Notes: generated by a model from the sequence alone, not told the origin. A stretch of 64,000 nt of DNA from Minisyncoccota bacterium (GCA_041664205.1 JBAYLF010000001.1:67380-131379); one strand, 5' to 3'; positions 1 to 34,436 are shown, counted from the first letter of the stretch. Numbers and translations are program-made.

Positions 1-2643
1 TTCATAGAACGAAACAACATTCAAAAGTCTGGTAAATACTTTTTTTACAACTTCATCCAAACCTTTTTCAGTAAATGCTATTTCCTCCCCTTTTACTGCG
101 GGCGATGTCAAAAGATAAAATCTTAAAGCATCTGCGCCATATTTATCTAAAACATAATCTATCGGCGGATAATTTTTTAAATGTTTGCTCATTTTTTGTC
201 CGTCTTCTGCAAGAACAGTTCCATGTGTAATTACACATTTATATGGAGCATGATCAAAAAGTGCCGTTCCTAAAACAATCAATGAATAAAACCAGCCTCT
301 AGTCTGATCAATTCCTTCCGCAATAAAATCAGCTGGGTATCGTGTATTTTTTTCAGGATCGAATTTATCTTTATTTTCAAATGGATAGTGATTTTGTCCA
401 TAAGGCATTGAACCAGATTCAAACCAGCAATCAAAAACTTCTGGAACTCTTTTTAGAGTTGCTCCGGCCTCGCAATCACATTTAAAAGTAAGTTCATCGA
501 TATATGGCTTATGAAAATCGAGCTCATAATTTTCATTGTGGGGCAAAGTCGTAAACTCAAGTTTTATCATTCCTCCTGTAGGAATAAACTCCGAACTGTC
601 CTTAGTCATAGAAACCGTCTTTTTTACATCAAACCCTTCGCTTACAGATTTCAAAAGCCATGCTGGACATTCATGAGTAACGATTAAAATATTTTTCTTC
701 TCGTATTTATTATTTATATCGTAAATAAACTCTCCTACTCTTCTTTTTACATCTGAAAGATTTTCTCCATTCGGCGCCCTAGTGACAAATCTATCTTCAT
801 AACCTTTGAAATAATTTACATATTCATTTACAGATTTTCCATTTAAATCACCTGCATTAATTTCTCTGAGCCTATCATCAGTAATAATTTTTTCAGAAGA
901 AACACCTAAGGCTTTTGCAATAATTTCAGCGGTTTCCTTAGTTCTTAAAATTGGCGAACGAAATATAAGATCAATTTTTTCTTTTTTAAGAAGTTCAGCT
1001 GTATCAAGAACTTGATCTTTACCTTTTGAAGTTAGAGGTCTTGGTGTGCTATCGTCGCTATTTATAACACCTAGTGCATTACTTTCTGATTCGCCATGGC
1101 GCATTACAAAATAATTATTTCGCGTTCCTACTTTTTCTTTTATATCAGCAATAGATCCTAGAACAACTTTGTCGTCGCATTTTGTGCATGTCCAAACTGG
1201 AAGTGGCGCGCCCCAATATCTTGAACGTGAAATAGACCAATCAGGAGCTCCTTCAAGTAATTTGCCGAAACGGCCATCACGAATTTCCTCCGGTATCCAA
1301 TGAACTTTTTTATTTTCTTCAATTAATCTGTTCTTGAATTCTGAAACTTTAACAAACCATGAAGAAGTAGCGTAATTCAAAAGCGGTGTATCGCATCTCC
1401 AACAATGAGGATACGAGTGCGTAATCTTTTCTTTTTCAAAAAGAAGTCCTTTGCCCGCAAGATTTTTTAAAACAACAATGTCAGTAGATTGGTGATCATC
1501 TTTTGGCTTTACCATAAGACCAGCAAAATCAGTAACTTCTGATTTAAATTTTCCATCAATTCCAACATGATGAATTATCGGCAAATTTTTCTCATTGGCC
1601 AAATTCAAGTCGTCCCCTCCAAAAGCGGGAGCGATGTGAACAATTCCTGTTCCGTCTTCTGTTGTTACAAAATCCGCGCTATATACTTTCCAGCCATTTT
1701 CTATATTTGGAACTTTTGCGCCAATATAATAATTAAAAGCAGTCTTGTATTGAGTATTCAAAAGTCGGTCGCCATTAAATTCTTCAACAACTTTATATTC
1801 TTTATTTTTGAAAACTGTTTCGAGTCGCGACTTCGCAAGAATAAGAAATTCTTCTCTCGAATCTGCATCTTTTTTGTAAGAAACTTTTACATAAGGAATA
1901 TCACTTTTAATAGCAAGCGCAACATTTCCAGGAAGAGTCCATGGGGTTGTTGTCCAGGCTAACAAAAATGTTCCAGGTTCAGTAGCAATTTCAAATTTCA
2001 CATAAACAGAAATATCGGCAATATCTTTGTAGCCTTGTGATACTTCAAAGTTTGAAAGTGTTGTCTCGCAACGGGGACAAACATGCATCGCTTTAAAACC
2101 TTTATAAATGTAGCCTTTGTCAAAAATATTTTTAAATATCCACCAGACAGTTTCAGTGTAATCGGAATCCATTGTTCTGTAAGCATTCTCCATATCAGCC
2201 CATCGTCCCGTTCGTGGAATAATTTTCTTCCAATCATCTACATATCTTTGCACTGCTTCTCTGGCAGCCTGATTGAATTTAGCAACGCCAAAATTCTCAA
2301 TATCTTTTTTTACTTTTAGATTGAGTTCTTTTTCAATAATATTTTCAATAGGAAGACCGTGGCAATCCCAACCCCATCGACGAGGAACATATTTACCGCG
2401 CATTGTTTGGAAACGCGGAATCACGTCTTTCATTGTGCCAGGCAAAATGTGTCCGTAGTGCGGAAGTCCTGTAGCAAATGGTGGGCCATCATAAAAAACA
2501 AACTCGGTTTTACCCTCGTTTTTCTTGAGTGATTTTTCAAAAACTTTATTTTCCTGCCAGAAAGCAAGAATTTCCTCCTCTTTTTTAGATAGACTGCTTT
2601 TTTCCTGAACATTGTCAGGTTGTTTTTTTTGTTCTTCTGTCAT
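1..2643 (-). CDS. ileS: Isoleucyl-tRNA synthetase, C-terminus beyond window start, with an inserted ~190 aa SixA-like histidine phosphatase domain (about nt 545-1128)
   Basis: My translation of the minus strand from the ATG at 2641-2643 gives MTEEQKKQPDN...FYDGPPFATGLPHYGHIL...GWDCHGLP (HYGH motif), WTTTPWTLPGN, HCWRCDTPL, KMSKH (the KMSKS motif), then CWFESGS. Between TCTKCDDK and HKPYIDE the frame continues through FVMRHGESESN...RPLTSKGKDQ...SPILRTKET...ILIVTHECPAWLL, a complete histidine-phosphatase (RHG/H) fold. The ORF track omits this gene because it runs off the window edge. Confidence 0.85.
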   Translation of the reverse strand, partial: MTEEQKKQPDNVQEKSSLSKKEEEILAFWQENKVFEKSLKKNEGKTEFVFYDGPPFATGLPHYGHILPGTMKDVIPRFQTMRGKYVPRRWGWDCHGLPIENIIEKELNLKVKKDIENFGVAKFNQAAREAVQRYVDDWKKIIPRTGRWADMENAYRTMDSDYTETVWWIFKNIFDKGYIYKGFKAMHVCPRCETTLSNFEVSQGYKDIADISVYVKFEIATEPGTFLLAWTTTPWTLPGNVALAIKSDIPYVKVSYKKDADSREEFLILAKSRLETVFKNKEYKVVEEFNGDRLLNTQYKTAFNYYIGAKVPNIENGWKVYSADFVTTEDGTGIVHIAPAFGGDDLNLANEKNLPIIHHVGIDGKFKSEVTDFAGLMVKPKDDHQSTDIVVLKNLAGKGLLFEKEKITHSYPHCWRCDTPLLNYATSSWFVKVSEFKNRLIEENKKVHWIPEEIRDGRFGKLLEGAPDWSISRSRYWGAPLPVWTCTKCDDKVVLGSIADIKEKVGTRNNYFVMRHGESESNALGVINSDDSTPRPLTSKGKDQVLDTAELLKKEKIDLIFRSPILRTKETAEIIAKALGVSSEKIITDDRLREINAGDLNGKSVNEYVNYFKGYEDRFVTRAPNGENLSDVKRRVGEFIYDINNKYEKKNILIVTHECPAWLLKSVSEGFDVKKTVSMTKDSSEFIPTGGMIKLEFTTLPHNENYELDFHKPYIDELTFKCDCEAGATLKRVPEVFDCWFESGSMPYGQNHYPFENKDKFDPEKNTRYPADFIAEGIDQTRGWFYSLIVLGTALFDHAPYKCVITHGTVLAEDGQKMSKHLKNYPPIDYVLDKYGADALRFYLLTSPAVKGEEIAFTEKGLDEVVKKVFTRLLNVVSFYE

Positions 2644-2789: not shown

Positions 2790-3347
2790 TTAGTATCCAT
2801 ACGCCCGACGAAGTGCCTTTCGAAGTTCAGCATCCTCACGAGCTTTCCTTTTTTCTTGTGCGATTCTCTCCCTACTGATCATTGCACACACTTTTGCATG
2901 TGCTTCCTCATGCTTGCTTTCAAGCAATTCATAGAGATTAAGAATCGGATCGGCAGAAGATTCCATGTCCCGGGCTATTGTTTTAACCCAACGTCCGTGA
3001 CCACGAGCATCAAGTCCTCCATAGAAAATCAGAAACATGGTCAATATGGTCCATTTATCTGTGTCATGGAAATTGCCAATCACTGTAATGTGATACTTTT
3101 CTTTGACTGCGTTCAGTGCCTTCGTTACACGTTCTGCATCCTTGCCACCCACATCCTTGAAATAAGCCAGCACCAACTTACTAATAGTGCCGAAACTCAT
3201 AACATCACCGCTGCGAACGAACACTTCGTCATTGTGAATAAGTTCGTTTACAGCTTTTACAAGAAGTTGTTCATCTTGTAATTCTTCGGGTGTAAGCTGA
3301 TGAAGTTCCACTTCATCCAATTCATTAAGAATATTTCTCATATACAA
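2790..3347 (-). CDS. Hypothetical protein, compositionally atypical (GC clearly above local background)
   Basis: 185 aa ORF with no recognisable motifs. Sequence such as cgcccgacgaagtgcctttcgaagttcagcatcctcacgagc contrasts with its roughly 30% GC neighbours. Confidence 0.4.
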   Translation of the reverse strand: MYMRNILNELDEVELHQLTPEELQDEQLLVKAVNELIHNDEVFVRSGDVMSFGTISKLVLAYFKDVGGKDAERVTKALNAVKEKYHITVIGNFHDTDKWTILTMFLIFYGGLDARGHGRWVKTIARDMESSADPILNLYELLESKHEEAHAKVCAMISRERIAQEKRKAREDAELRKALRRAYGY

Positions 3348-3505: not shown

Positions 3506-5236
3506 CTACATCTTCTCTGGAACCTTGATTCCTAAAAGATGCAATCCGTTTTTGAGCGTAATATAAACAGCCTTAGTTAAAGCCAATCTATGAGCCGAAG
3601 TTTTTAAATCGTCTGGATCAAGAATTTTATTATTAGCATAAAAGCTATTAAAAAGTGAGGCAATCTCTGTTAAATAAATAGCAATATAATGCAAAGAATA
3701 TTCATTTTGGGATCTTACTACTATTTCAGGAAAACGATAAAGCATTTTTTCCAACTCTGATGACCCCTCATCAATATCATCGGATAGTTCTTTTTCTATT
3801 GTTTCTACCAATCCTGAATTATTTAATTTTTCTAAAACTGATTTTGCGCGAACAAAAGAATATTGAATATAAGGACCGGAATCACCTTCAAATGAAATTG
3901 ATTTTTCAAAATCATAAATAATATCAGAGCCAGCAGACTGTTTTAATATAGAATATTTTATCGCGCCAATCGAAACTCTCTCTGCTATTTCTTTTTTCTC
4001 ATCGTCATCAAATCCACGATCTTTTATTTTTTCTTCTATCAATTTACTTATATCAGACATAAGAGACTCAGCTGTTATAACATCACCTGTGCGTGAAGAC
4101 ATTTTTCCAGTTGGAAGTCGTAGCATTCCGTGAGAAAGATGCTTAGTCTTAGCTCGTAATTCTGGGAATAAAAGCTCCATCGCTTTTAGCACTACGCTAA
4201 AATAGTCCCTAACTTCATTACCTGTAATTATTATAGATTTGTCATAAGAATATTCATCGTGTTTTATTTTTGCCAAACCAAGTTCTTTTGCTTCATATGT
4301 CGCTATTCCCTCTTTATTTATAAAAACCCTAGTATGCAGATCATATTTTTCTCCTTTAAAAATAACTGCGCCATCGCTTTTTTCAAAAATTTTGCCGATA
4401 TTTTCTTCGACTATTTTTTTACCAAGATCTGCGGTATTGCTTTCAAAAAAATAATAATCGAATGTTGTTCCAAGTTTTTTGTATATTCCTTCAAAATATT
4501 CTAAACTCCATTTTTTACCAAGATCATATAGGGCATTTATTTTTTTGTCAGATCGTTCGTAAATTTTTTTGTTAAGTTCTGCAATTTCTTGTTTATGTTC
4601 ATCATCGCTTTCATACATCATTGAGCCAGTTTTGTAACACATTCCTAAAAATTCCGCCTTACTAATAACTGAGTCTTTTTCATTAGGTAAAAGACTTTCA
4701 TTCATAAGAATTCCGCTCATAGCTTTTGCAACATGAAGCCCGACATCACCTTGATAACAGGCACGTTTTACTTCTGCGCCAGAAAATTCAACAAGTCTAG
4801 CGATTGATTCGCCAATTGAGTTCGACATCAAATGTCCGATATGAAATTCCTTAAATGGATTTGGGTCCGTGTATTCGATAATAACTTTTTTGTTTTTTAA
4901 AGAATCATTTTTTCCAAAATTTTCTCCTTCTTCGACTATCTGTTTAATACTATTTGCAAAAAATTCGTGCGACAAATAGAAGTTTATAAAACCAGGACCG
5001 GCAACCTCAACCTTTTCAATTTCTGGAATTTTATTTTTTGAAATTTCGGCGACAACTTTTTCAGCAAGATCTTTCGGAGAAGTTTTTAGTTGTTTTGAAT
5101 AAACAAGCGCTACATTAGTAGAATAGTCACCATTAGAAATATCTTCTGGATGTTCAGTAACAATATTTGAAACATCAGCATCTATTCCGAGTTTTTTTAA
5201 AGCTTCACCTATTAAAATTTTTAATTTTTCCTGCAT
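3506..5236 (-). CDS. argS: Arginyl-tRNA synthetase
   Basis: 576 aa. HIGH-type motif in PNPFKEFHIGHLMSN, an N-terminal Arg-tRNA synthetase N-domain-like region, and the typical ...VPEKM C-terminus. Confidence 0.9.
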   Translation of the reverse strand: MQEKLKILIGEALKKLGIDADVSNIVTEHPEDISNGDYSTNVALVYSKQLKTSPKDLAEKVVAEISKNKIPEIEKVEVAGPGFINFYLSHEFFANSIKQIVEEGENFGKNDSLKNKKVIIEYTDPNPFKEFHIGHLMSNSIGESIARLVEFSGAEVKRACYQGDVGLHVAKAMSGILMNESLLPNEKDSVISKAEFLGMCYKTGSMMYESDDEHKQEIAELNKKIYERSDKKINALYDLGKKWSLEYFEGIYKKLGTTFDYYFFESNTADLGKKIVEENIGKIFEKSDGAVIFKGEKYDLHTRVFINKEGIATYEAKELGLAKIKHDEYSYDKSIIITGNEVRDYFSVVLKAMELLFPELRAKTKHLSHGMLRLPTGKMSSRTGDVITAESLMSDISKLIEEKIKDRGFDDDEKKEIAERVSIGAIKYSILKQSAGSDIIYDFEKSISFEGDSGPYIQYSFVRAKSVLEKLNNSGLVETIEKELSDDIDEGSSELEKMLYRFPEIVVRSQNEYSLHYIAIYLTEIASLFNSFYANNKILDPDDLKTSAHRLALTKAVYITLKNGLHLLGIKVPEKM

Positions 5237-5247: not shown

Positions 5248-5745
5248 TTATTTTCCTGAACTGCCAAAACCTTTTTTACCTCTTTGCGAGTCAGCCAGAG
5301 ATGTAACTTCCTTAACCTTAACCGATTCTTTTTTCTGAATAACCATCTGCGCTACCTTGTGGCCTTTTTCAAATTTATACACTTTTTTGGAAAGATTTAC
5401 TATACCAACTTTCACTTCACCTCGAAAGCCAGCATCGACAACACCACCTAAAGTTTTCAATCCAAAATTATGAGAAAGTCCGCTTTTATCCCAGATAAGT
5501 CCAACATATCCTTTTGGAATTTCTATCGCAACACCTGTGGCAACCGAAAATCTTTCGCCTGGCTTAAGCGTTACATTTTCATTTGAATATAGATCAAGAC
5601 CAGCATCGTCATGATTAGCATAGTTTGGTAAAATTGCGCTTTTATCCAACTTCTGAATTTTTAGTGTAATTGACATGAGGATATTGTAACAAAAAAGGCC
5701 TAACTTTGTTAGACCTTTATATTTTATACTTATCTTATTTAACAA
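5248..5745 (-). CDS. dut: dUTP diphosphatase
   Basis: 165 aa. dUTPase motifs are present (AGLDLYS, GERFSVATGV, GLIWDKSGL, VDAGFRGEV). Confidence 0.85.
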   Translation of the reverse strand: MLNKISIKYKGLTKLGLFCYNILMSITLKIQKLDKSAILPNYANHDDAGLDLYSNENVTLKPGERFSVATGVAIEIPKGYVGLIWDKSGLSHNFGLKTLGGVVDAGFRGEVKVGIVNLSKKVYKFEKGHKVAQMVIQKKESVKVKEVTSLADSQRGKKGFGSSGK

Positions 5746-6406
5746 GAATGCTTATTATTTCAAGACATTGCTTCTCCACAGCATCCGCAGACTGATTGGC
5801 ATCGATAATCTCGCAAGGAATACAGGGTAAAGAATCTTGATATCCTTTAGCCATTCTTTCATAGAAATCCTGATATCCTTTAGCCATTCTTTCATAGAAC
5901 CATCGAGGCTGATCATGGAAATGATGCGATATATCAGGACGAGCTTTATATCTCTTCTCAGCAACATCAAGATCAACGTTCAGATATATATACAAATCTG
6001 GAGCATTAAATGCATAAAATCTTCTCGCCTCAAAAAACCAATCTTTAAGAACAGGATATCCTCGTTCATATATCTGAATAGCATAAGTTGAGCTATCAAA
6101 TCTGTCACAAATAACATTTGCGCCTGATTTAATGGCTGGCGCTATAAGTTTTTGAACATGATCAATGCGTGCAGCCGTGATCATAAGAAAATCGACAGCA
6201 ATATCAGCACCTCTGGCTTCTTCAGATAAAATCACCGTTCTTAGTTTTTCAGCAAGAGGAGATCCGCCCGGCTCTCGTGTAAAAACAAAACTTTCCGAAG
6301 AAAGTTTAGCTTTTAGATTTTTTATCAGCGTAGTTTTGCCCGAACCTCTTATACCATCAACAACAATGAACTTGCCTTTCTTGTTTTTCATAGTTTCTTC
6401 GCCCAT
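5735..6406 (-). CDS. tmk: Thymidylate kinase (contains an in-frame 33-bp tandem duplication)
   Basis: P-loop VVDGIRGSGKTT and a dTMP kinase-like core. FYERMAKGYQD occurs twice in tandem, from identical 33-nt units at 5839-5871 and 5872-5904. Confidence 0.85.
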   Translation of the reverse strand: MGEETMKNKKGKFIVVDGIRGSGKTTLIKNLKAKLSSESFVFTREPGGSPLAEKLRTVILSEEARGADIAVDFLMITAARIDHVQKLIAPAIKSGANVICDRFDSSTYAIQIYERGYPVLKDWFFEARRFYAFNAPDLYIYLNVDLDVAEKRYKARPDISHHFHDQPRWFYERMAKGYQDFYERMAKGYQDSLPCIPCEIIDANQSADAVEKQCLEIISILVK

Positions 6407-6412
6407 CTTAAC

Positions 6413-6898
6413 TTAAAAAATTTCTTCAAGCAATAAGACTGTATGGTTTGAAATTTCATATTTATCTTTCGGTTCGATATCTTTATGTTTTCCCCACTTC
6501 AAATGAATAGTTGTGCAACCAAGCAAATTTCCAAATCGAATTTCAGTATCTATTCTATTTCCAATAACCCAAACTGACAAAGCATCGTCAATTTTATATT
6601 CAGAGATTTTTTCTTTAAATATTTTTTCTTTTTCTTCATCTGTGCCGCAAATAATAATTTGATCAAAATATCCTCGAATACCCAGCACGTCTATTTTTTC
6701 ATTTTGAATTTCTGGATCGCCTCTTGAAATTAAAATTTTCGGACAAGTTATTTTTCCAAGAAGTATTTTGGAATATGGGAATAGAGTTATTGATAAAATA
6801 TCTTTATGAGATGCATCTAACTGTCCTGTTGTATCAAACAGAGTGTCATCGAGATCTATCAATAAAAGTTTCGGTTGTTCATTAAAAATTTTTTTCAT
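6413..6898 (-). CDS. HAD-superfamily hydrolase (probable nucleotidase or phosphatase)
   Basis: N-terminal LLIDLDDTLFDT is HAD motif I with a DxD catalytic pair. The protein is small (161 aa). Confidence 0.6.
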   Translation of the reverse strand: MKKIFNEQPKLLLIDLDDTLFDTTGQLDASHKDILSITLFPYSKILLGKITCPKILISRGDPEIQNEKIDVLGIRGYFDQIIICGTDEEKEKIFKEKISEYKIDDALSVWVIGNRIDTEIRFGNLLGCTTIHLKWGKHKDIEPKDKYEISNHTVLLLEEIF

Positions 6899-6954
6899 TT
6901 ATTTTATAGTATAACAAAAAGACCGCAATATTTTGCGGTCTTTTGATAAAATAA

Positions 6955-7938
6955 TTACAAACTAGCTATTACAGAAGCAATTTTTACATTATGTCTTACG
7001 ATATTGCCTGTCTGATCGGCAAAATTTCTGACTATAATCCGCTCAGCAAACTTACTAAGTTCATCATTATTTACAACAACAGGGTGAGCTTTTTCTTCAG
7101 AATATTTTACGATGATAGCCTCGCTTATACAAGCGGGATCATTGCATAATATAGCATCGAAATTATCACAACCAATATGTTTAAGAAGAACTCTGGCAAA
7201 ATCAGTGGCAGTAAAACCATCTGTTTCAGCCTTTTTTGTCATTACATTTACAATACATATAAGACTGGCTTTTGTTTCCTCAATAGCATCCTTAAATCCA
7301 TTTACCAAAGTATTTGGAATTGTAGAAGTAAAGAAATCACCAGGACAAAATACGATCTTCTGAGCATTAACGATCGCTTGATAAGCTTCTGTGTAAATAA
7401 AAGCTTCCGGCTCTAAAAATGCCCTGACGATAGTTCTGTCATCATCGATCGATCTTGTGTCTATATTACCTTCGCCTTTTATAATACTTCCATCATTAAG
7501 TTCTACACAAAGATCAGCATCGTCCAGACTTACCGGTAAAACTTTTCCTTTAACCCCATACCACTGACACATCGTATTGATAGCGGATGGTAAACTTCCA
7601 GTAATTTCTGTAAGCGCCGTAAGAAAAAGATTTCCCATCGTCACACCATCAAGTGATGATCCGTTTTGCGGTTCAAATCTGAAAGACAAAAGTTTTCGCA
7701 AAGTTGGCTCAATTTTATCATCCGCTAGAGCCAAGATCGCTTGTCTAATATCTCCTGGAGGTAAAACTCCTCTTTCATCGCGAAGCTGACCTGAATGACC
7801 ACCGTGATCAAAAGTGGTTTGAATAGTTGTTATATTCGATCTTATACGTTTTAAAAAATGTGCGATGCGATAAACTCCACCGCCACCACCAATAAGCACA
7901 ATTGATTCTTTTATTTTATTCACAGCTGTTTGTTTCAA
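6955..7938 (-). CDS. YvcK/CofD-family protein (UPF0052, gluconeogenesis-factor family)
   Basis: N-terminal glycine-rich loop IVLIGGGGGVYR..., and a length and pattern typical of the CofD/YvcK family. Confidence 0.7.
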   Translation of the reverse strand: MKQTAVNKIKESIVLIGGGGGVYRIAHFLKRIRSNITTIQTTFDHGGHSGQLRDERGVLPPGDIRQAILALADDKIEPTLRKLLSFRFEPQNGSSLDGVTMGNLFLTALTEITGSLPSAINTMCQWYGVKGKVLPVSLDDADLCVELNDGSIIKGEGNIDTRSIDDDRTIVRAFLEPEAFIYTEAYQAIVNAQKIVFCPGDFFTSTIPNTLVNGFKDAIEETKASLICIVNVMTKKAETDGFTATDFARVLLKHIGCDNFDAILCNDPACISEAIIVKYSEEKAHPVVVNNDELSKFAERIIVRNFADQTGNIVRHNVKIASVIASL

Positions 7939-8038
7939 TTAACAATTCTGCTAGAACTCTACCTGCTAACTATAAAAAAGCAAGAATAAAAAATCGCTTG
8001 TAAATTATACAAGCGATTTTTAAATATTTTTGGATAAA

Positions 8039-10795
8039 TTATTTCTGATCCGCAAGGGCTGCTTGGGCTGCAGCAAGCTTTGCTACTGAAACACGGAATG
8101 GACTGCAACTTACATAAGTTAAGCCTATCCTGTGGCAGAATTTTACGCTTTCAGGCTCGCCACCATGCTCTCCGCAAATTCCAAGTTTGATATCTGGTCT
8201 GGTCTTTTGTCCCAAATCTTTCGCAATTTGTATAAGCTTTCCAACACCATGCTGATCTATTGTTGAAAATGGATTCTTGGCGATAATTTCATTTTCAATA
8301 TATGCAGGCAAGAAACTTCCAGAATCATCTCGGCTCATACCAAGAGTTGTCTGTGTTAGATCATTTGTTCCAAAGCTGAAAAACTGGGCATCTTTTGCAA
8401 TTTCATCAGCAATAACAGCAGCACGTGGAATTTCTATCATTGTTCCAACTTTGTAATCAAATTTTACTTTTTTTTCTTTCGCAACTTCAGATGCAACGCG
8501 ATTAACAATTTCGAGCTGCATTTTTAATTCTTTTGTAAACCCAACAAGCGGGATCATGATCTCTGGCTTAACTTTAATTCCCTGTTTCATCACTTCTGCC
8601 GCAGCCTCAAAAACAGCTCGCGCCTGCATCTCAGAAATTTCAGGATATGAAATTCCTAAACGGCATCCTCGGTGGCCAAGCATCGGATTAAATTCGTGGA
8701 GTTCGTGAACTCGCTTTGCAATAAATTCAGAAGAAACTCCTATCTTTTGCGACAGATCATCTTGAGTCGTTATGTCGTGAGGCAAGAACTCATGTAAAGG
8801 TGGGTCGAGAAATCGAATAGTAGCTGGCAAACCTTTTAAAGCTTTAAATATTCCTGCAAAATCTTTTCGCTGATAAGGCAAAAGCTTCTGAAGCGCTTTG
8901 ACCCTTTCTTCTTTATCTTCAGCTAATATCATTTCGCGCATTGCATCAATTCGATCGCCTTCAAAAAACATGTGCTCAGTTCGGCAAAGGCCGATTCCTT
9001 CTGCTCCAAAAGCTAAAGCATTTTCAACTTGCTCTGGGGTATCAGCATTAGTTCTCACTCCAAGCTTTCTGAATTTATCAACCCAGCTCATAAGTTGTGA
9101 AAATTCCTTAAAAGTCTGACTCTTCTTTGGATCCAAAGTTTTTTCAACCAGGACTTGAACAACTTCTGACGGTGCAGTCTTTACTTCGCCTTCAAAAATC
9201 TCGCCTGTTGTTCCATCAATAGAAATGTAGTCACCTTGCTTAAATGTTTTTTCGTTTGCGGTTAATGTCTTTTTTGCGTAATCAATATGAAGAGTAGAAA
9301 CTCCGCAAACACAAACTTTACCCATTTGTCTTGCAACTAAAGCCGCATGTGAAGATACTCCGCCTCGTGCAGTCAAAATTCCTTCTGCAGCGATCATTCC
9401 TCTAAGATCTTCTGGTGATGTTTCGATTCTAACAAGAATAACTTTTTCGCCTTTGTGCGCCATTTCAACAGCATCAGTTGCGTTGAAAACAATTTTTCCG
9501 GAAGCGGCACCTGGGCCCGCCGCCAAACCAACTGCAATCTTTTCGGCGCTTCTTGCTGAACTCTTATCAAATATCGGCGCAAGAACGTGTGCTAGAGAAT
9601 CAGCTGGAATTCTTTTTACAGCTTCTTCTTTAGTGATCAATTTTTCATTTACCATGTCAACGGCAATTTTTACAGCGGCCAAGCCAGTTCTTTTGCCGTT
9701 TCTTGTTTGAAGCATATACAAATGATTGTCTTCAACAGTAAATTCAAAATCCTGCATATCTTTAAAGTGCTTCTCCAAAGCTTCTCGCACTTTTAATAAA
9801 TCCTTATAAGCTTGAGGCATTTCTTCTGCAAGTTTCAAAACTGGATGAGGTGTTCGAACTCCAGCAACTACATCTTCGCCTTGTGCGTTTATCAAATATT
9901 CTCCATAGAAAGCTTTTTCACCAGTTGCAGGATTTCGAGTGAATGCAACTCCAGTCGCACTTGTATCTCCCATGTTTCCAAAAACCATTGTCTGAACGTT
10001 TACCGCAGTTCCCCATTCGTGAGGAATTCCATACTTTCGACGATAAACAATCGCGCGATCATTGTTCCAAGAACTGAATACTGCGCCAATAGAACCCCAG
10101 AGTTGTTCTCTCGGATCTTGAGGAAATGCTTTTCCTGTTCGCTCTTTTATAAGATCTTTAAATCCTTGAACAAGTTTTTTCAAATCTTCTACTTTAAGTT
10201 CTGTATCATCTTTAACTCTTGCCTCTCGTTTAATTTCTTCAATCACAACTTCAAATGGTTCATGATCTTCGTCTGGCTTTCTTTGAACTCCCATAACAAC
10301 GTCGCCATACATCTGCACAAATCTGCGGTATGAATCCCAAGCAAAGCGATGATTTCCGGTTCTCTCTCCTACAATCTCAACAGTTTTGTCATTCATTCCC
10401 AAGTTCAAAATCGTATCCATCATTCCAGGCATTGAGTCGCGAGCACCTGATCGCACTGAAACAAGCAAAGGCTTTTCTTTGTCGCCCAACTTTTTTCCGA
10501 CAGATTTTTCAAGCTTTAAAAGCGCAGCTTCAACCTGTGCCTTTAATTCAGCTGGATATTTTTTGCCATTTTCATAAAAATAATTGCAAACTTCCGTTGT
10601 AAGAGTAAATCCTGGAGGAACAGGAAGTCCTATGCGGGTCATTTCTGCAAGATTTGCACCCTTACCTCCTAAAAGCGGTTTCATACTGCCGTCGCCATCA
10701 GCACCACCATTACCAAAAAAATAAACGTACTTACCTTTTTTTCCTGCACTTTTCGATTTTGAGTTCGAAGCAGAAGTTTTTCCTTTTGTAGCCAT
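8039..10795 (-). CDS. ppdK: Pyruvate, phosphate dikinase
   Basis: [11 protein letters not shown] near the N-terminus, a central phospho-His domain ([15 protein letters not shown]) and a C-terminal PEP-utilising TIM domain. The likely start is MATKGK at 10795, not the upstream M at 10849. Confidence 0.9.
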
Positions 10796-10973
10796 ATTTT
10801 TAAAAAGAATGAATGAATAATTAAATAATGTAGGAATATGATAACACAATATGTTTTAAAAATAAAAAAATTGGGCATTTTAGACTATACAACTATAAAT
10901 TTGTGTAGTCTGAAAAATTTTTCTTCTAAAATTCATTCACTTTATGCTAAAGTAGCCTCAGAAAAACAGTACT

Positions 10974-12263
10974 ATGAAAGAAATAATTATTGTTGATGAT
11001 CTACCTGTTGAAACTCTTGCTATGTTGCAAGCTCTATATTCCAGAAGTCCTCGCAGTGTTAGAGAACATTTGGAACAAGTTAAAAAAGTTGGACCTGGAA
11101 AATTTATGGCTTCCTTTTATGTCGGTTATGGACATAAAAGCATTGGCGACTGTGGCACAACAAGCATTTTTATAGAAAATGTGAGTATGTTAGTCGCAAA
11201 AGCTATTCAAGATTGGCTGCTATATAAAGGTCAGGAAGCGAGCACTCGCTATCTGGATATGACAAAACAGCCGATCGTTAATCCTTTAGGAACCGAACAA
11301 GGAAAGAAAGTTCAAGATGAATGGATGAGTTTTTATGCTTATCTTCTTGAACAACTTATTCCTATATTAAAAGAACGTTTTCCAAGAGAAGAAGGCCAGG
11401 ACGAAAAGATTTGGACCAAAGCTGTAAATGCCAGAGCATTTGATATCGCGCGGAGTTTTCTTCCTGCAGGCACTGCCACCTTCTTAAGCTGGCATACAGA
11501 TATAAGGCAAGCAAATGACCATATTAAAGAATTGAGACACCACCCTCTTCAAGAAGTGCGTGAAATAGCTCAAGGAATGCTTGCAGCCTTAAGAGAAAAA
11601 TATCCTAATAGTTTTAGTCATAAAGAATATCCGGCTGAAGAATCGTATTTGGAGGAAACAGCAAAGGAAATAACTTACTTTGATGACCCTTCTATTATTC
11701 GTTTCGATTTCAGGCCAAAATTCGATCTACAAGGTTTATTAAAGTTTGAAAAACTTTTAGCTAGTCGACCTGCAAAATCTGAACTACATAGATTATTCAG
11801 AATGTATGGCGATATAACTTTTATCTTTCCTCTTGATTTCGGGTCATTCAGAGATATTCAGCGTCAAAGAAGCGTTATTCAACAAATGCCTTTATTAACC
11901 ACTAAATATGGTTTCCATCATTGGTATCTTGAACAACTGCCAGAAAATTTGCGCTTAGAAGCAGAAAGTTTCATCAATAGGCAAAAAAGAAAGATTGCCG
12001 AACTTGATACAACGCCAGAAATAGCTCAGTATTATACAGCAATGGGATTTATTGTTACATGCAAACTTGTCGCAACCTTGCCTGCTGCGGTTTATATTGC
12101 AGAATTAAGAACGTCCGATGCTGTTCATCCAACATTGCGTGCAATTGCACAAAAAATGGGTGAAGCTCTTAAAGCGTCTGTTCCAGGAATTGCTATACAT
12201 CATGATATGTCATCTGGATCCTGGAATATCAATAGAGGTAAACAAGATATTGTTCAAAAATAA
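10974..12263 (+). CDS. Divergent ThyX-like (flavin-dependent thymidylate synthase family) protein; identity uncertain
   Basis: GHKSIGDCGTTSIFIENVSMLVAKAI and QEASTRY resemble the ThyX core and its ...NExSxRY motif, but the canonical RHR is absent and the protein is long (429 aa). It sits in a dNTP metabolism neighbourhood. Confidence 0.35.
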   Translation: MKEIIIVDDLPVETLAMLQALYSRSPRSVREHLEQVKKVGPGKFMASFYVGYGHKSIGDCGTTSIFIENVSMLVAKAIQDWLLYKGQEASTRYLDMTKQPIVNPLGTEQGKKVQDEWMSFYAYLLEQLIPILKERFPREEGQDEKIWTKAVNARAFDIARSFLPAGTATFLSWHTDIRQANDHIKELRHHPLQEVREIAQGMLAALREKYPNSFSHKEYPAEESYLEETAKEITYFDDPSIIRFDFRPKFDLQGLLKFEKLLASRPAKSELHRLFRMYGDITFIFPLDFGSFRDIQRQRSVIQQMPLLTTKYGFHHWYLEQLPENLRLEAESFINRQKRKIAELDTTPEIAQYYTAMGFIVTCKLVATLPAAVYIAELRTSDAVHPTLRAIAQKMGEALKASVPGIAIHHDMSSGSWNINRGKQDIVQK

Positions 12264-12282
12264 TTATTTAAAATAATTTAAA

Positions 12283-12321
12283 ACACCCTTTGAAATTTCG
12301 ATTTCAAAGGGTGTTATTTTT
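12283..12321. terminator. Bidirectional intrinsic terminator between convergent genes
   Basis: Perfect hairpin acaccctttgaaatttcgatttcaaagggtgt followed by a T-run. Confidence 0.7.
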
Positions 12322-12329
12322 TGGTAATT

Positions 12330-12881
12330 CTACATGTCAGAATACTCCGTCATTTTGTTATTAAGCAGTTCAAGTTTTACACCCGACTCTTTAAATCTTT
12401 TTTTGCTTTGCTCGCTCGCATGATAATCTTCTTTCGCCACTACACGCTTGATACCTGCATTTATAATACTCTTAGCACATGTGTAACAAGGCACCATTTT
12501 ACAATACAACGTTGCACCATCAGTGCTTATGCCAAATCGTGCAGCTTGTGTTATTGCGTTAAGCTCTGTGTGAACAGTGCGAATACAGTGCCGAGATTTT
12601 ACTCCGTCATCGCTTATCACAGTGTGCATTTCATGGCCATCTTCATCACAATGCTTACAACCAATCGGAGCACCAACATAGCCTGTGGAAATTATCCTTT
12701 TATCTTTCACTAATACAGAACCAGAACGACCCCGATCACAAGTACTTCGAGTTCCAACTACATCAACAATACTCATAAAATACTCGTCCCAAGAAGGTCT
12801 TTTATAAACTTCGGTTTTTTCGACTTCTGATTTAACTGCTTTTTTATTTATAACTTTCTTTTTTTTACTTTTATAAGCCAT
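12330..12881 (-). CDS. dCMP deaminase (ComEB-like) with a lysine-rich N-terminal extension
   Basis: Zinc-binding signature HTELNAI and PCYTCAKSII (HxE ... PCxxC). Confidence 0.8.
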   Translation of the reverse strand: MAYKSKKKKVINKKAVKSEVEKTEVYKRPSWDEYFMSIVDVVGTRSTCDRGRSGSVLVKDKRIISTGYVGAPIGCKHCDEDGHEMHTVISDDGVKSRHCIRTVHTELNAITQAARFGISTDGATLYCKMVPCYTCAKSIINAGIKRVVAKEDYHASEQSKKRFKESGVKLELLNNKMTEYSDM

Positions 12882-13037
12882 GTAATATTAGCTTTTTAGA
12901 AATTAATAGCATAATAATATCCAATAGCCCCAAAACATCAATAAAAACTTTTAGTAGAAACTGATTTGCCTTTTATGTCTACTAAACAATAATCCTGTGA
13001 AGTTTTATTATAGTAATATAAATTTTAAAAAAATATC

Positions 13038-13670
13038 GTGTCTGTAATAACAAAAAGACAAATCTTAGAATACGTTAAAAAAGGAGAAATCGCTTTTACT
13101 CCCAATCTTGATAAGTTCCAGCTTCAAGAACATGCGGTTGATATGCGTCTCGGTTTTACCTTTCTTATACCTAAACATTGGCATCTAACCAAACTCGGCC
13201 GAGAATCGCTTGAGGTCAGCCATTTCAACAAGCCAAATGCAAAATTCTTCGATGTGGTAAATCTTAAAGAAGGACAATTTTTTGATCTTATGCCTCACGA
13301 GTTCGTTCTTGTTTCTACATTAGAGTCCATCAAAGTTCCGACAAACCTTATGGCGGTCCTCTATCCCCGATCTTCAACAAATCGCAAAGGACTTTCATTA
13401 GACTTAACTGGAATTATTGATTCCGGATACGAAGGACAATTGACACTCCCTATTAGAAACAATTCGCACTCACAAATAGTCCGCCTCTATCCAGGCGAAA
13501 GGATCTGCCAAGTAGTTTTCGAAGAACTTACAGAAAAAGTCTCGCCAAGACAGAGTAAATATCATAAAAAAGAAATAGTAGAAGGAGTGCTTTTAGAAAA
13601 AAAAGAGGAAGTAGATCAAATAATGAAAGGAAAACTGAAACATCTGAAAGAAAAATATAAAATTAAGTAA
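13038..13670 (+). CDS. dcd: dCTP deaminase-family protein (GTG start)
   Basis: Pattern and length of the dCTP deaminase / dUTPase-like beta-barrel family. The start codon at 13038 is GTG. Confidence 0.7.
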   Translation: MSVITKRQILEYVKKGEIAFTPNLDKFQLQEHAVDMRLGFTFLIPKHWHLTKLGRESLEVSHFNKPNAKFFDVVNLKEGQFFDLMPHEFVLVSTLESIKVPTNLMAVLYPRSSTNRKGLSLDLTGIIDSGYEGQLTLPIRNNSHSQIVRLYPGERICQVVFEELTEKVSPRQSKYHKKEIVEGVLLEKKEEVDQIMKGKLKHLKEKYKIK

Positions 13671-19121: not shown

Positions 19122-19808
19122 CTACATTGATTTAGATTCAATGTCTCTTCCATAATCATTCCAAGCTAATACTTTCCAACCTTTGGTTTCATTCTTTTTT
19201 TCTTTTGGAACATATTCGCACAAAGTGATACCGGCATTATTCATAGGGTTATGAAAACTCAACCTAGCATAATCTTCTGCTGTAAGTTTTTCTCTGTAAA
19301 GCATGAATGAAACTACCATTTTAAGAAAGATTGCGTGAGTAACTATAACTATCTGCGTCTCCTTTCTTTTTGCAATAAAATCCAAAAGTTTGCTAGCGCG
19401 CTCCTTCATATCTTCAAAATTCTCCTCATCAGAGTAGCGTAGATCATTTGTGTGAAAACTTTTATCAATTAAATCTACAATTTTTTTAACTTCAGGATCA
19501 TCGCCTCTTTTGCCAACTATTTCTGAAGGATTTCGTCTTTCTTTCAACAAATCAGTATATTCTATTTTTTTATTATTAAGTTCCTTTGAAATAATTTTCG
19601 AAGTTTCTACTGTTCTTTCATAAGGACTGGAAATAATAATCTGAATAGGAAAATTTGATAAACGAGCACCAACAAAAAGAGCTTGCTCTCTGCCCTTTTC
19701 GCTCAACTTACCTTCAGGACCTTGCCTTACATGAGCAGCGTTATTCTCAGTCTCTCCATGACGAACTAGATAGATTCTTTTAGGTTTTTTAAAGAAAAAG
19801 AAAAACAT
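19122..19808 (-). CDS. Histidine phosphatase family protein (PGAM/SixA-like)
   Basis: LVRHGETENN (RHG motif), SSPYERTVET, and a downstream IVTHA catalytic His. Confidence 0.7.
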   Translation of the reverse strand: MFFFFFKKPKRIYLVRHGETENNAAHVRQGPEGKLSEKGREQALFVGARLSNFPIQIIISSPYERTVETSKIISKELNNKKIEYTDLLKERRNPSEIVGKRGDDPEVKKIVDLIDKSFHTNDLRYSDEENFEDMKERASKLLDFIAKRKETQIVIVTHAIFLKMVVSFMLYREKLTAEDYARLSFHNPMNNAGITLCEYVPKEKKNETKGWKVLAWNDYGRDIESKSM

Positions 19809-24145: not shown

Positions 24146-24249
24146 AGTTATATTTTAAAACAATAAGTAGGGTTTGTTTAGTGTATAACTTTATTTTTAC
24201 ATCAAACAAAATACTTCTATCAATACCCGAAAAAACCGCTTAATTAATA

Positions 24250-24684
24250 TTAATTTGAAGTTGAACCCCCCGAGTTTGTATTAACTTGTTGAATATCAAG
24301 AGAAAAAGTAACCAACTTAGGATTTATCGTATACAAAACCATGTATGAAGTCAGCGCAAGTAAAAGTCCGAGCAATGCATAAGTAACTTTACTCTTTCCT
24401 TCTTCCTTACCTGTAAATGAATCTGTAGACATATACTGTGCGCCACCAAGTATGATCATAATTAATGCAAGAAATATAGCGGTAGCAACTCCAACTTTAT
24501 AAAGAACATTTAAATATGCTACGAAACCTCCGCCTGTATATTCGGCGCCTTGAAGTTTAAAGTCAGCAAGAGGAACATATTCAGTAGAAGAGTTTCCAGT
24601 AGTATCCTCAGCAAATGCACAAAAAGGCAAAAATATCCCTATAAGCAAAAAAATCATTGATATGCCAACTATGTATTTCTTCAT
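24250..24684 (-). CDS. VirB2/TrbC-like pilin candidate
   Basis: 144 aa with a signal peptide and two hydrophobic helices (ATAIFLALIMIILGGAQYM and LLGLLLALTSYMVLYTI), the typical T4SS pilin architecture. Confidence 0.4.
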   Translation of the reverse strand: MKKYIVGISMIFLLIGIFLPFCAFAEDTTGNSSTEYVPLADFKLQGAEYTGGGFVAYLNVLYKVGVATAIFLALIMIILGGAQYMSTDSFTGKEEGKSKVTYALLGLLLALTSYMVLYTINPKLVTFSLDIQQVNTNSGGSTSN

Positions 24685-24719
24685 GTATTAATTAATTTAT
24701 TCTTTAATTAAAGTTAAAC

Positions 24720-25904: not shown

Positions 25905-25931
25905 TATTTATTTTTGAATTAACTTAATAAA

Positions 25932-26438: not shown

Positions 26439-26440
26439 AT

Positions 26441-28330: not shown

Positions 28331-28356
28331 ATGATTTTAATTAAATTTCTTAGTGA

Positions 28357-29019: not shown

Positions 29020-29046
29020 TTAATATTTTTGTTTAAATTGAAATTT

Positions 29047-29499: not shown

Positions 29500-29536
29500 T
29501 TTTTACTCCATTCTTATCACTACTATTTACTTTTCT

Positions 29537-29610
29537 GTCATTCCCGCGAAGGCGGGAATCCAGTCTTCATCTTCTCTACTCTGGATTCCCGCCTTCGCGG
29601 GAATGACAGT
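29537..29610. repeat. Double-hairpin palindromic repeat element, copy 1
   Basis: tgtcattcccgcgaaggcgggaatccag ...17 nt... ctggattcccgccttcgcgggaatgaca. Each arm is itself a GAAG/CTTC-loop hairpin. It is GC-rich relative to its surroundings, and a second copy lies at 40129-40200. Confidence 0.7.
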
Positions 29611-29649
29611 GTTGAAGACTTCACAACTTTAAACACTCTTACCCTACAA

Positions 29650-34430: not shown

Positions 34431-34436
34431 AAATTT

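What the first reader, a model, noticed from the sequence alone, without database searches (positions are those of the whole stretch)
545..1128. Isoleucyl-tRNA synthetase with an inserted SixA-like histidine phosphatase domain
Inside ileS the reading frame runs uninterrupted from the second zinc-knuckle region (TCTKCDDKVV...) into about 190 aa with a complete histidine-phosphatase fold (FVMRHGESESN...RPLTSKG...SPILRTKET...ILIVTHECPAWLL). It resumes with the IleRS HKPYIDE...CWFESGS segment and KMSKH. This is a domain insertion in a core aminoacyl-tRNA synthetase, not a neighbouring gene. A second free-standing paralog of the same phosphatase family lies at 19122-19808. I do not recognise a phosphohistidine-phosphatase insertion in IleRS as a described architecture.
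Basis: seen in the sequence. Interest (0 to 1): 0.65.

Follow-up and report, generated by a model that had tools for sequence, protein, structure and literature searches.

The report
IleRS carrying a nested histidine phosphatase
The isoleucyl-tRNA synthetase of this Paceibacteria (CPR) genome really does carry a complete histidine phosphatase domain, with its catalytic residues intact, inside its catalytic core; related lineages encode the same phosphatase as a separate gene just upstream of ileS, which points to an undescribed enzyme partnership whose substrate is unknown.

Summary
One minus-strand ORF (start codon at 2643, running off the left end of the window) encodes a type-2 IleRS. It is interrupted at window 520-1122 by a ~200-aa His_Phos_1 domain (Pfam E=1e-31). 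The domain sits inside the CP3 zinc-knuckle hairpin, between CTKC and CDC.

It is not an assembly artefact. The full-length protein (P0035, 1177 aa) is in public databases. All 120 best IleRS homologues carry the domain, and a pattern-limited scan found it in at least 308 GTDB species genomes. The catalytic R-H-G, Arg, Glu and His are invariant across 116 sequences.

The domain resembles PhoE, PspA and CobC. It is not SixA and not a dPGM.

The main new result is genetic. In other Paceibacteria the same phosphatase subfamily is a ~190-aa gene lying between argS and an ileS that has no insert. The two forms never co-occurred in 160 loci. The window keeps the argS-x-ileS synteny.

Rare variants carry 2-4 copies, use other IleRS loops, or are fused to ArgRS or TsaC.

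My best reading is a dedicated, catalytically active phosphatase partner of IleRS, fused in cis here. Its substrate is unknown. I found no paper describing it. It is a new variant of a known kind, and I score interest at about 0.6.

The parts
1..2643 (-). ileS, first 881 codons. The remaining 296 codons lie beyond the left edge of the window. It encodes a type-2 (eukaryote/Thermus-like) isoleucyl-tRNA synthetase.
   Evidence: Single frame. Identical to P0035 residues 1-881. TIGR00392 ileS scores 893.5 bits against a cut-off of 621.4. Best PDB matches are human, yeast, T. thermophilus and P. megaterium IleRS2.
2449..2460 (-). HIGH signature (HYGH, P0035 residues 62-65)
   Evidence: invariant in A5
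1636..1956 (-). CP1 editing-domain motifs (WTTTPWT at 1936-1956 and GTGIVH at 1636-1653). The editing domain appears intact.
   Evidence: conserved in A5
1177..1188 (-). First half of the CP3 zinc knuckle, CxxC (CTKC; C486 and C489)
   Evidence: at least 90% conserved in 116 sequences
520..1122 (-). Nested histidine phosphatase domain (His_Phos_1, branch 1; P0035 residues 508-708), inserted in CP3
   Evidence: Pfam E=4e-33. Insertion boundaries come from alignment to human and yeast IleRS. AF2 model of the insert alone has pLDDT 97, and its top Foldseek hits are PspA 4ij5/4ij6, PhoE 1h2e and Rv2419c.
1093..1101 (-). RHG motif (R515, nucleophile H516, G517)
   Evidence: Invariant in A4, A5 and A7
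940..957 (-). SPILRT, carrying the second phosphate-pocket arginine R567
   Evidence: Invariant
850..867 (-). REINAG, carrying E594, the predicted general acid
   Evidence: Invariant
670..681 (-). VTHE, carrying the second catalytic histidine H657
   Evidence: Invariant
523..546 (-). Return linker LPHNENYE (consensus PxPHNxNYELD). It is conserved only in the nested forms. It is absent from canonical IleRS and from the free-standing phosphatases.
   Evidence: P701, H702, N703, E707 and D709 are at least 90% conserved. Present in both sequence subtypes. Absent from insert-less IleRS and from free-standing proteins.
472..480 (-). Second half of the CP3 zinc knuckle, CxC (CDC; C722 and C724)
181..195 (-). 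KMSKS-type loop (KMSKH, residues 817-821)
2790..3347 (-). 185-aa ORF of unknown function. It occupies the argS-ileS slot where sister lineages carry the free-standing phosphatase gene. It is not a phosphatase.
   Evidence: No Pfam hit. No hit in the six-frame phosphatase HMM scan.
3506..5236 (-). argS (arginyl-tRNA synthetase), the conserved upstream syntenic neighbour
   Evidence: Pfam tRNA-synt_1d, DALR_1 and Arg_tRNA_synt_N. argS lies within 3 genes upstream of ileS in 58 insert-bearing loci and 33 insert-less loci.
19122..19808 (-). Free-standing, distant His_Phos_1 paralog (228 aa). It is not part of the IleRS-associated subfamily.
   Evidence: Pfam E=1.7e-30. 31% identity to the insert. 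Groups with the outgroups in the NJ tree. Subfamily HMM score 74, against 265 for the insert.

Best explanation
This is a genuine bifunctional enzyme. It is a complete, editing-competent type-2 IleRS whose peripheral CP3 zinc-knuckle hairpin carries a nested ~200-aa histidine phosphatase of the PhoE/PspA/CobC type, with intact catalytic residues.

By family chemistry, H516 would attack a phosphomonoester to form a phospho-histidine intermediate. R515, R567 and H657 would hold the phosphate. E594 would protonate the leaving group, and water would then release Pi. This is inferred, not shown.

The nested domain is the cis-fused form of a small phosphatase gene that lies between argS and ileS in other Paceibacteria. 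The phosphatase is therefore best read as a dedicated partner of IleRS that docks at CP3. A conserved, fusion-specific return linker (PHNxNYELD), the four zinc-knuckle cysteines and a tightly conserved insert length suggest it is held in a fixed orientation. CP3 follows directly on the CP2-3 linker, which in yeast IleRS forms part of the binding pocket for reveromycin A. That inhibitor occupies the tRNAIle binding site.

My committed guess is that the domain removes a phosphate from something bound at or passing through the synthetic-site entrance. I put functional coupling to IleRS at about 55%.

Within that 55%:
- About 30% is a blocking phosphate on a macromolecule. Examples are a 3'/2'-(pyro)phosphorylated A76 of tRNAIle, or a phosphorylated IleRS residue such as the KMSKS serine that HipA-type kinases target in other class I synthetases.
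- About 25% is a nucleotide or inhibitor-like small phosphomonoester.

Shown here: the architecture, conservation of the catalytic residues, the fold, and the mutually exclusive cis and trans genetic forms. Inferred: catalytic activity, docking, and coupling to IleRS. Guessed: the substrate.
For: Architecture and reality:
- Single frame and Pfam domains.
- A clean 200-for-3-residue insertion relative to solved IleRS structures.
- The full-length identical protein P0035.
- All 120 best homologues carry PF00300.
- 308 GTDB species genomes match across both junctions.
- AF2 model of the full protein has pLDDT 90.9 and pTM 0.85, with an IleRS2 fold (TMt 0.8-0.87).

Active enzyme:
- R515, H516, G517, R567, E594 and H657 are invariant in 116 sequences that are 55-60% identical to the query overall. 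They are also invariant in alignments that include free-standing and TsaC-fused members.
- The extra copies in multi-copy variants keep these residues.
- The insert core is about as conserved (0.51 mean pairwise identity) as the anticodon-binding domain (0.56).

Partner relationship:
- A metagenome scan with the free-standing family returned 45 loci with a ~190-aa gene and 35 with the domain inside a long ORF (34 in IleRS, one fused to ArgRS).
- In 37-39 of 43 free-standing loci the gene order is argS, then the phosphatase, then an ileS that has no insert.
- In 160 loci the two forms never co-occur.
- No insert-bearing locus has a free copy upstream.
- The window keeps argS-x-ileS.
- Both IleRS sequence subtypes occur in both states.

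Geometry:
- The linker motif and the zinc-knuckle cysteines are at least 90% conserved.
- Insert-region length is 258-267 aa in most of 67 sequences.
- CP3 boundaries and the role of the CP2-3 linker in the reveromycin A (tRNA-site) pocket come from PMC7955072 and PMC7191050.

The simplest fusion would be hp-IleRS end to end, because hp lies directly upstream of ileS. I did not see that form. The nested CP3 form dominates instead.
Against: - No coordinates of the AF2 model were available to me. I could not measure the distance or orientation of H516 relative to the A76 pocket or the KMSKS loop.
- The nearest solved relatives are all small-molecule metabolic phosphatases.
- The nested domains are mildly acidic (pI about 6, net charge -5), which does not favour extensive RNA binding.
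- Rare variants have 2-4 tandem copies, or copies in two other IleRS loops. These argue against one strict geometry.
- The whole region (infC-rplT...argS-hp-ileS...recO) is syntenic, so adjacency could be inherited rather than selected.
- Patescibacterial TsaC is fused to many apparently unrelated partners, so fusion is weaker evidence of shared function in this clade.
- The genome has a CCA-adding enzyme with an HD domain. In E. coli that domain already provides tRNA 3'-end phosphatase activity (my own knowledge).
Confidence: 0.55

Rival explanations
1. Passenger enzyme. The domain is an ordinary housekeeping or metabolic small-molecule phosphatase, for example a phosphoserine-, sugar-phosphate- or nucleotide-phosphatase. 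It lay in a conserved housekeeping gene cluster next to ileS and was captured into the structurally permissive CP3 loop. It works independently of aminoacylation and gains only co-expression.
For: - Closest structures are PspA, PhoE, GpgP, a riboflavin-pathway phosphatase, CobC and dPGM.
- CP3 is a variable peripheral subdomain with three different topologies in solved IleRS structures.
- Tandem arrays of up to 4 diverged copies, and copies at other surface loops, look like IleRS acting as a scaffold.
- Fusions are promiscuous in this clade: TsaC is found joined to MGMT, TruB, a 2H phosphoesterase, NUDIX and GNAT domains.
- The nested domain has an acidic surface.
Against: - The free gene is found almost only in the argS-hp-ileS slot (37-39 of 43 loci).
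- The cis and trans forms are strictly mutually exclusive.
- The insertion is always at the same CP3 point, with a conserved purpose-built linker. The trivial end-to-end fusion to the adjacent ileS start is not seen.
- The association persists across two IleRS subtypes.
Confidence: 0.3
2. It is the 'missing' cofactor-dependent phosphoglycerate mutase of Parcubacteria. This is a special case of the passenger reading.
For: - The best NCBIfam match is dPGM_arch (98.5 bits).
- Jaffe et al. 2020 report that PGM is absent from several shallow Parcubacteria clades, possibly because the enzymes are too divergent to detect (PMC7304191).
Against: - The dPGM_arch score is far below its cut-off (98.5 against 225), and so is TIGR01258 (29.8 against 81.7).
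- The residues that distinguish mutases from phosphatases in this superfamily are not present. In E. coli GpmA numbering these are R90 and Y92 after the catalytic Glu, R116/R117, and the G-N after the second His. Here the sequence reads E-I-N-A and H-E-C. The residue list is from my own knowledge of the family.
- The domain is about 190 aa and lacks the dPGM C-terminal tail.
Confidence: 0.05
3. Non-catalytic module. The domain serves as a structural replacement or extension of CP3, or as a sensor that binds a phosphorylated metabolite and modulates IleRS allosterically.
For: - It sits in a peripheral subdomain that mediates protein-protein contacts in human IARS1 (PMC13439101).
- The linker is fixed and the full-length model has a high pTM.
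Against: - All five catalytic residues are invariant over more than 116 sequences and in the extra copies. A pure binding or structural role would not require the nucleophile together with the general acid.
Confidence: 0.08
4. Artefact: a misassembly, a frameshift that joins two genes, or a mobile or intein-like insertion.
For: None found.
Against: - There is one frame.
- The same junctions appear in hundreds of independent assemblies from many studies.
- The insert shows no GC anomaly: 33.2%, against 36.4% for the rest of the gene and 33.0% for the window.
- Phage and plasmid collections hold only distant free-standing phosphatases, at most 34% identical.
- There are no intein or endonuclease domains.
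Confidence: 0.01

Closest known systems
Small branch-1 histidine phosphatases (Geobacillus PhoE 1H2E; Hydrogenobacter phosphoserine phosphatase PspA 4IJ5; CobC alpha-ribazole phosphatase; Rv2419c GpgP)
   Same: Same fold and size (TM 0.73-0.80). Same catalytic set of RHG, Arg, Glu and His. 18-28% identity.
   Different: All of these are free-standing metabolic enzymes. This one is nested inside an aminoacyl-tRNA synthetase, or is encoded next to it. It passes none of the curated equivalog cut-offs. Its subfamily has its own signatures: SGNKYFVMRHG in nested forms and SSWPEK..NPLT in free forms.
Type-2 IleRS (T. thermophilus 1ILE, P. megaterium IleRS2 8C8U, yeast and human cytosolic IleRS)
   Same: Same domain order, HIGH and KMSKS motifs, CP1 editing domain, and anticodon-binding plus C-terminal domains. 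As in T. thermophilus, CP3 carries a Cys4 zinc knuckle.
   Different: The CP3 hairpin loop is expanded by a 200-aa catalytic domain and a new conserved linker. No solved or described IleRS has this.
CP1 editing domain of class Ia synthetases
   Same: It is also a second hydrolytic catalytic domain nested in the Rossmann fold of the same enzyme family. A recent survey notes aaRSs as preferred hosts for domain insertions (PMC13114784).
   Different: CP1 is universal in class Ia synthetases, acts on the aminoacyl ester, and has a different fold. The phosphatase here is clade-specific and has a free-standing alternative form.
Rv2228c-type bifunctional RNase HI/acid phosphatase (NCBIfam NF005567)
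   Same: It is a precedent for a CobC/PhoE-like His_Phos_1 domain fused to a nucleic-acid enzyme. The insert scores 72.8 bits on that model.
   Different: That is an end-to-end fusion, not a nested one. The score is far below the cut-off of 326. The partner enzyme is different.
IleRS with an N-acetyltransferase domain (NCBIfam NF040702 ileS_w_GNAT)
   Same: It shows that IleRS with an extra catalytic domain is a recognised annotation category. Some Patescibacteria IleRS carry both the phosphatase and a C-terminal GNAT domain (P0064, P0280).
   Different: The added domain and its position are different. P0035 scores 338 bits against a cut-off of 1999.
SixA phosphohistidine phosphatase
   Same: Same superfamily and the same RHG nucleophile motif.
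   Different: Only the N-terminal ~75 residues align. The score is 47 bits against a cut-off of 74.5, and the PDB E-value is 6e-4 against 7e-14 for PspA. SixA is a truncated ~160-aa form, whereas this is the full ~190-aa form.

Membership tests
Histidine phosphatase superfamily, branch 1 (Pfam PF00300 His_Phos_1) | Profile score above the curated gathering threshold | tested here: met
   110.6-115.1 bits against 21.7; E=1e-31 to 4e-33
Histidine phosphatase superfamily, branch 1 (Pfam PF00300 His_Phos_1) | RHG motif with the nucleophilic His, plus a second Arg and a second His forming the phosphate pocket | tested here: met
   R515-H516-G517, R567 and H657 are present and invariant in 116 sequences
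Histidine phosphatase superfamily, branch 1 (Pfam PF00300 His_Phos_1) | Acidic proton donor (Glu) after the third strand | tested here: met
   E594 in RLREIN is invariant
Histidine phosphatase superfamily, branch 1 (Pfam PF00300 His_Phos_1) | Alpha/beta fold of the dPGM/PhoE type | tested here: met
   AF2 pLDDT 97; Foldseek top hits are PspA, PhoE, GpgP and CobC with TM 0.73-0.80
Histidine phosphatase superfamily, branch 1 (Pfam PF00300 His_Phos_1) | Phosphomonoesterase or mutase activity through a phospho-His intermediate | not testable with these tools
   Needs an enzyme assay with an H516A control
SixA (TIGR00249) | Equivalog score above cut-off, with full-length coverage of the ~154-position model | tested here: not met
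   47 bits against 74.5; only model positions 3-75 align
Cofactor-dependent phosphoglycerate mutase (TIGR01258, NF038349) | Score above cut-off | tested here: not met
   29.8 against 81.7, and 98.5 against 225
Cofactor-dependent phosphoglycerate mutase (TIGR01258, NF038349) | Mutase-specific substrate residues (E. coli GpmA R90, Y92, R116/R117, N186) | tested here: not met
   The sequence reads E594-I-N-A and H657-E-C. The residue list is from my own knowledge of the family, and the alignment was by eye.
Isoleucyl-tRNA synthetase (TIGR00392 ileS) | Equivalog score above cut-off | tested here: met
   893.5 bits against 621.4 for P0035
Isoleucyl-tRNA synthetase (TIGR00392 ileS) | Class I HIGH and KMSKS signatures, CP1 editing motifs and an anticodon-binding domain | tested here: met
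   HYGH, KMSKH, WTTTPWT and GTGIVH. PF08264 and PF19302 are present in P0035. The fold matches IleRS2.
Isoleucyl-tRNA synthetase (TIGR00392 ileS) | Isoleucylation of tRNAIle | not testable with these tools
   Needs an aminoacylation assay. No second ileS was seen in the window, but only 64 kb was available.
IleRS-associated phosphatase subfamily (defined here) | Encoded either inside IleRS CP3 or as a ~190-aa gene between argS and ileS, never both | tested here: met
   115 loci with the domain only inside a long ORF, 45 with it only as a short ORF, 0 with both. The loci were selected by the presence of the domain, so this shows exclusivity, not universality.

The most novel reading that the evidence does not exclude
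The phosphatase is a built-in 'unblocking' activity of IleRS. Docked at CP3 beside the acceptor-end pocket, it would remove an inhibitory phosphate. One candidate is a 3'/2'-(pyro)phosphate on A76 of tRNAIle, of the kind written by toxSAS-type enzymes or left by RNases. The other is a phospho-serine on the synthetase's own KMSKS loop, of the kind written by HipA-type kinases on GltX and TrpS. In either case the synthetase would carry its own antidote, in cis here or in trans in sister lineages. This would be a new class of aaRS accessory function alongside editing.
Probability: 0.15. Interest if true: 0.85.

Novelty: new variant of a known kind. Interest (0 to 1): 0.6.

Why it matters
Aminoacyl-tRNA synthetases are among the most conserved enzymes known. 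A second catalytic domain nested in the catalytic core has so far meant editing.

Here a different hydrolase, a histidine phosphatase, is nested in IleRS across a large uncultivated bacterial clade. It alternates with a stand-alone gene next to ileS. That pattern is classic Rosetta-stone evidence for a physical and functional partnership.

If the coupling is real, it reveals either an unknown requirement of isoleucylation in CPR bacteria or a new defence or repair function attached to a synthetase. If the domain is only a passenger, it remains a clean natural example of repeated domain insertion into an essential enzyme at a single permissive site.

There is also an annotation consequence. NCBI records in this clade name these proteins only 'class I tRNA ligase family protein', although the full-length protein P0035 passes the ileS equivalog model. 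The free-standing partner genes carry only generic names such as 'uncharacterized phosphatase'.

Tried and rejected
Rejected explanations:
- Misassembly, frameshift or two genes: rejected on the single frame and on conservation in hundreds of assemblies.
- Intein or mobile element: no such domains, no GC anomaly, and nothing similar in phage or plasmid collections beyond distant free phosphatases.
- SixA and dPGM membership: both fail the curated cut-offs.

Analyses that did not deliver:
- The first homologue search with the insert alone found only four fragmentary fusions, because of the limits of the word index. Searching with the whole protein was needed.
- The look-up of encoding contigs did not find P0035.

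Weak or unresolved evidence:
- The TsaC-phosphatase fusion (P0220, P0303-P0305) first looked like a clue to adenylate or t6A chemistry. It is weakened because Patescibacteria TsaC is fused to many partners.
- NJ trees of the domain and of the IleRS core are star-like and unsupported. They hint at several fusion or fission events but cannot count them. Average identities suggest that the nested or free state is older than the two IleRS sequence subtypes, with a few recent switches.

Literature:
- Nine full-text searches found no description of the architecture. Subscription-only papers were not searched.
Full report
**Observation**

Translating the minus strand of 1-2700 gives one uninterrupted frame, from the ATG at 2643 to the left edge of the window. 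The 881 residues are identical to the first 881 of a 1177-aa database protein, P0035. NCBI names it 'MAG: class I tRNA ligase family protein [Candidatus Paceibacterota bacterium]', and it comes from a 300-kb contig.

Pfam places tRNA-synt_1 in two stretches, with His_Phos_1 between them (E=1e-31, 110.6 bits against a cut-off of 21.7). P0035 passes the NCBIfam ileS equivalog model (893.5 bits against 621.4).

Alignment to solved IleRS structures is colinear except at one point. Query residue 508 pairs with human 494 and residue 710 with human 498. About 200 residues (window 520-1122) therefore replace three. GC content of the insert (33.2%) is unremarkable.

**Where the insert sits**

The insertion point corresponds to yeast IleRS residues 496-499. 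It therefore lies inside the CP3 subdomain, which spans yeast residues 459-526 (PMC7955072) and C. albicans residues 473-534 (PMC7191050).

- CP3 is peripheral and variable. It carries a zinc-binding motif in T. thermophilus IleRS.
- Here the two halves of that knuckle, C486xxC489 and C722xC724, flank the insert. They are at least 90% conserved.
- CP3 follows directly on the CP2-3 linker. In yeast IleRS that linker lines the pocket that binds reveromycin A, an inhibitor that occupies the tRNAIle binding site.
- An AF2 model of the full protein is confident (pLDDT 90.9, pTM 0.85). It superposes on IleRS2 structures with TMt 0.8-0.87.

**What the insert is**

The nearest solved proteins by sequence and by fold are small metabolic phosphatases: Hydrogenobacter phosphoserine phosphatase PspA, Geobacillus PhoE, Rv2419c, a riboflavin-pathway phosphatase, CobC, and then the dPGMs.

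No curated NCBIfam equivalog model is passed. SixA aligns only over its N-terminal half (47 bits against 74.5), and the dPGM models are far below cut-off. 'SixA-like' is therefore not accurate.

The catalytic residues R515, H516, G517, R567, E594 and H657 are invariant in 116 homologues that are 55-60% identical to the query overall. They are also invariant in alignments that add free-standing and TsaC-fused relatives. The domain core is about as conserved as the anticodon-binding domain (0.51 against 0.56 mean pairwise identity). This points to an active enzyme.

**How common it is**

- All 120 best IleRS homologues carry PF00300.
- A pattern-limited scan of one genome per GTDB species found 308 genomes that encode the junction plus the insert. 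Almost all of those listed are labelled Patescibacteria or Paceibacteria lineages: Nomura-, Wolfe-, Campbell-, Yonath-, Niyogi-, Vogel-, Adler-, Taga- and Berkelbacteria.
- An exhaustive phmmer search of 1.84 billion cluster representatives gave 67 clusters at E≤1e-30. Of the best 148 hits, 99 have IleRS flanks.

Variants exist:
- Tandem arrays of two to four copies in CP3 (P0165, P0300, P0301).
- A second copy between the catalytic and anticodon-binding domains (P0241, P0297).
- A second copy in the loop between WFESG and DQTRGWF (P0240).

All of these copies keep the catalytic residues.

**The key result**

Forty-nine of the best 148 hits had no IleRS flanks, and many of these are complete ~190-aa proteins. 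A metagenome scan with that family returned 80 loci. The gene is free-standing in 45 loci, lies inside IleRS in 34, and is fused to ArgRS in one.

- In 37-39 of 43 free-standing loci the order on one strand is argS, then the phosphatase, then ileS. That IleRS (~949 aa) has an intact short zinc knuckle and no insert.
- Across all 160 fetched loci the domain is either only nested (115 loci) or only free (45 loci). It is never both.
- None of the 114 insert-bearing ileS loci has a free copy upstream, and 58 of them still have argS within three genes.
- The window shows the same synteny: argS at 3506-5236, an unrelated 185-aa ORF at 2790-3347, then ileS.
- Two IleRS sequence subtypes (PPFATGLPHYGH and PPTANGxPGIHH) each occur in both states.
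- Nested domains of both subtypes resemble each other (0.42 identity) more than they resemble free ones (0.37-0.38). A few nested domains carry the free-type SSWPEK signature, which suggests recent switches.
- The trees are too star-like to count the events.
- Nested forms share a linker motif, PxPHNxNYELD. It is absent from canonical IleRS and from the free proteins.
- Insert-region length is tightly conserved.

**Other fusions**

- One locus has ArgRS fused end to end with the phosphatase (L095).
- Four clusters have TsaC fused to it (P0220, P0303-P0305).
- Patescibacterial TsaC is also fused to MGMT, TruB, 2H-phosphoesterase, NUDIX and GNAT domains. That fusion is therefore weak evidence of shared function.

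**Interpretation**

The architecture is real and ancient within this clade, and the phosphatase is almost certainly active.

Several observations argue for a dedicated IleRS partner docked at CP3. I put this at about 55%.
- The cis and trans forms are mutually exclusive.
- The insertion point is constant, although a trivial end-to-end fusion to the adjacent ileS start was available.
- The return linker looks purpose-built.
- The association persists across two IleRS subtypes.

The substrate is unknown. Candidates are:
- a blocking phosphate on the tRNAIle acceptor end;
- a blocking phosphate on the synthetase itself;
- a nucleotide-like small molecule.

The main rival reading, at about 30%, is a passenger metabolic phosphatase captured into a permissive loop. 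It is supported by:
- the small-molecule nature of all the structural relatives;
- the acidic surface of the nested domains;
- the multi-copy and multi-site variants;
- the synteny of the whole region;
- the clade's promiscuous fusions.

The 'missing PGM of Parcubacteria' idea (PMC7304191) is unlikely. The scores are low and the mutase-specific residues are absent.

**Novelty**

Nine full-text searches found no description of this architecture. A 2026 survey of domain insertions mentions tRNA synthetases as hosts, but only for editing domains.

The sequences and their Pfam architectures are already in public databases. The find is therefore an undescribed variant of a known kind, not a new protein family.

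Noticed in passing
P0165, P0240, P0241, P0297, P0300, P0301 (database proteins, not in the window): Some Patescibacteria IleRS carry 2-4 histidine phosphatase domains. They occur as tandem arrays in CP3 or as extra copies at two other surface sites (after P0035 residue ~885, and between residues 758 and 771). The copies are diverged (27-43% identity) but all keep the catalytic residues.
   Followed up: partly
P0064 and P0280 (database proteins): These are IleRS proteins with the phosphatase insert and also a C-terminal GNAT acetyltransferase domain. P0280 additionally has an in-frame IS200-like Y1 transposase domain inside the editing-domain region. That could be a real nested element or an assembly or annotation artefact.
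   Followed up: no
P0303-P0419 (database proteins): TsaC/YrdC (the t6A threonylcarbamoyl-AMP synthase) of Patescibacteria is fused to a striking variety of partners. An O6-methylguanine methyltransferase DNA-binding domain is the most common. The others are TruB, 2H/CPDase phosphoesterases, NUDIX, methylpurine glycosylase, GNAT and the IleRS-type phosphatase.
   Followed up: no
L095:6408-8570: A 720-aa ORF in which ArgRS runs straight into the phosphatase with no stop codon (...GISSPQQM|KRIELNNKYYIMRHG...), directly upstream of an insert-less ileS. It is a single example and could be a sequencing error.
   Followed up: partly
window 2790-3347 (-): A 185-aa ORF with no Pfam hit sits between argS and ileS, exactly where sister lineages carry the free-standing phosphatase gene. 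Other insert-bearing loci have different small ORFs there, or none.
   Followed up: partly
window 48749-50263 (+), with tRNA genes at 45345-48679: A CCA-adding enzyme with an HD domain lies next to a cluster of four tRNA genes (Gly-TCC, Pro-TGG, Gly-GCC, Arg-TCG). In E. coli the HD domain of this enzyme has tRNA 3'-end phosphatase and phosphodiesterase activity (my own knowledge). This bears on the tRNA-end-repair hypothesis.
   Followed up: no
window 22847-35459 (-): A run of large minus-strand ORFs, most with no Pfam hit (432, 394, 220, 305 and 731 aa). Among them are a TraG/VirD4-like P-loop ATPase (26441-28330) and proteins with InlB B-repeat and TSP3 repeats. This may be a secretion, pilus or conjugation-like surface apparatus.
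   Followed up: no
window 57867-60589 (+): The dnaA-dnaN pair is here, so the chromosomal replication origin region probably lies within the window. A tyrosine recombinase (XerC/integrase-like) is at 50698-51642.
   Followed up: no
window 5248-13670: A cluster of nucleotide-metabolism genes: dUTPase, thymidylate kinase, a 429-aa ORF with a ThyX domain, and a dCTP deaminase-like gene. It also holds a CofD/YvcK-like gene and a 936-aa pyruvate phosphate dikinase (8039-10849), which indicates PPi-linked central metabolism.
   Followed up: no
P0035 and relatives: Where an NCBI name is given, it is only 'class I tRNA ligase family protein' or 'hypothetical protein'. The one protein I tested, P0035, passes the TIGR00392 ileS equivalog cut-off. 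This looks like an annotation gap caused by the insert.
   Followed up: partly
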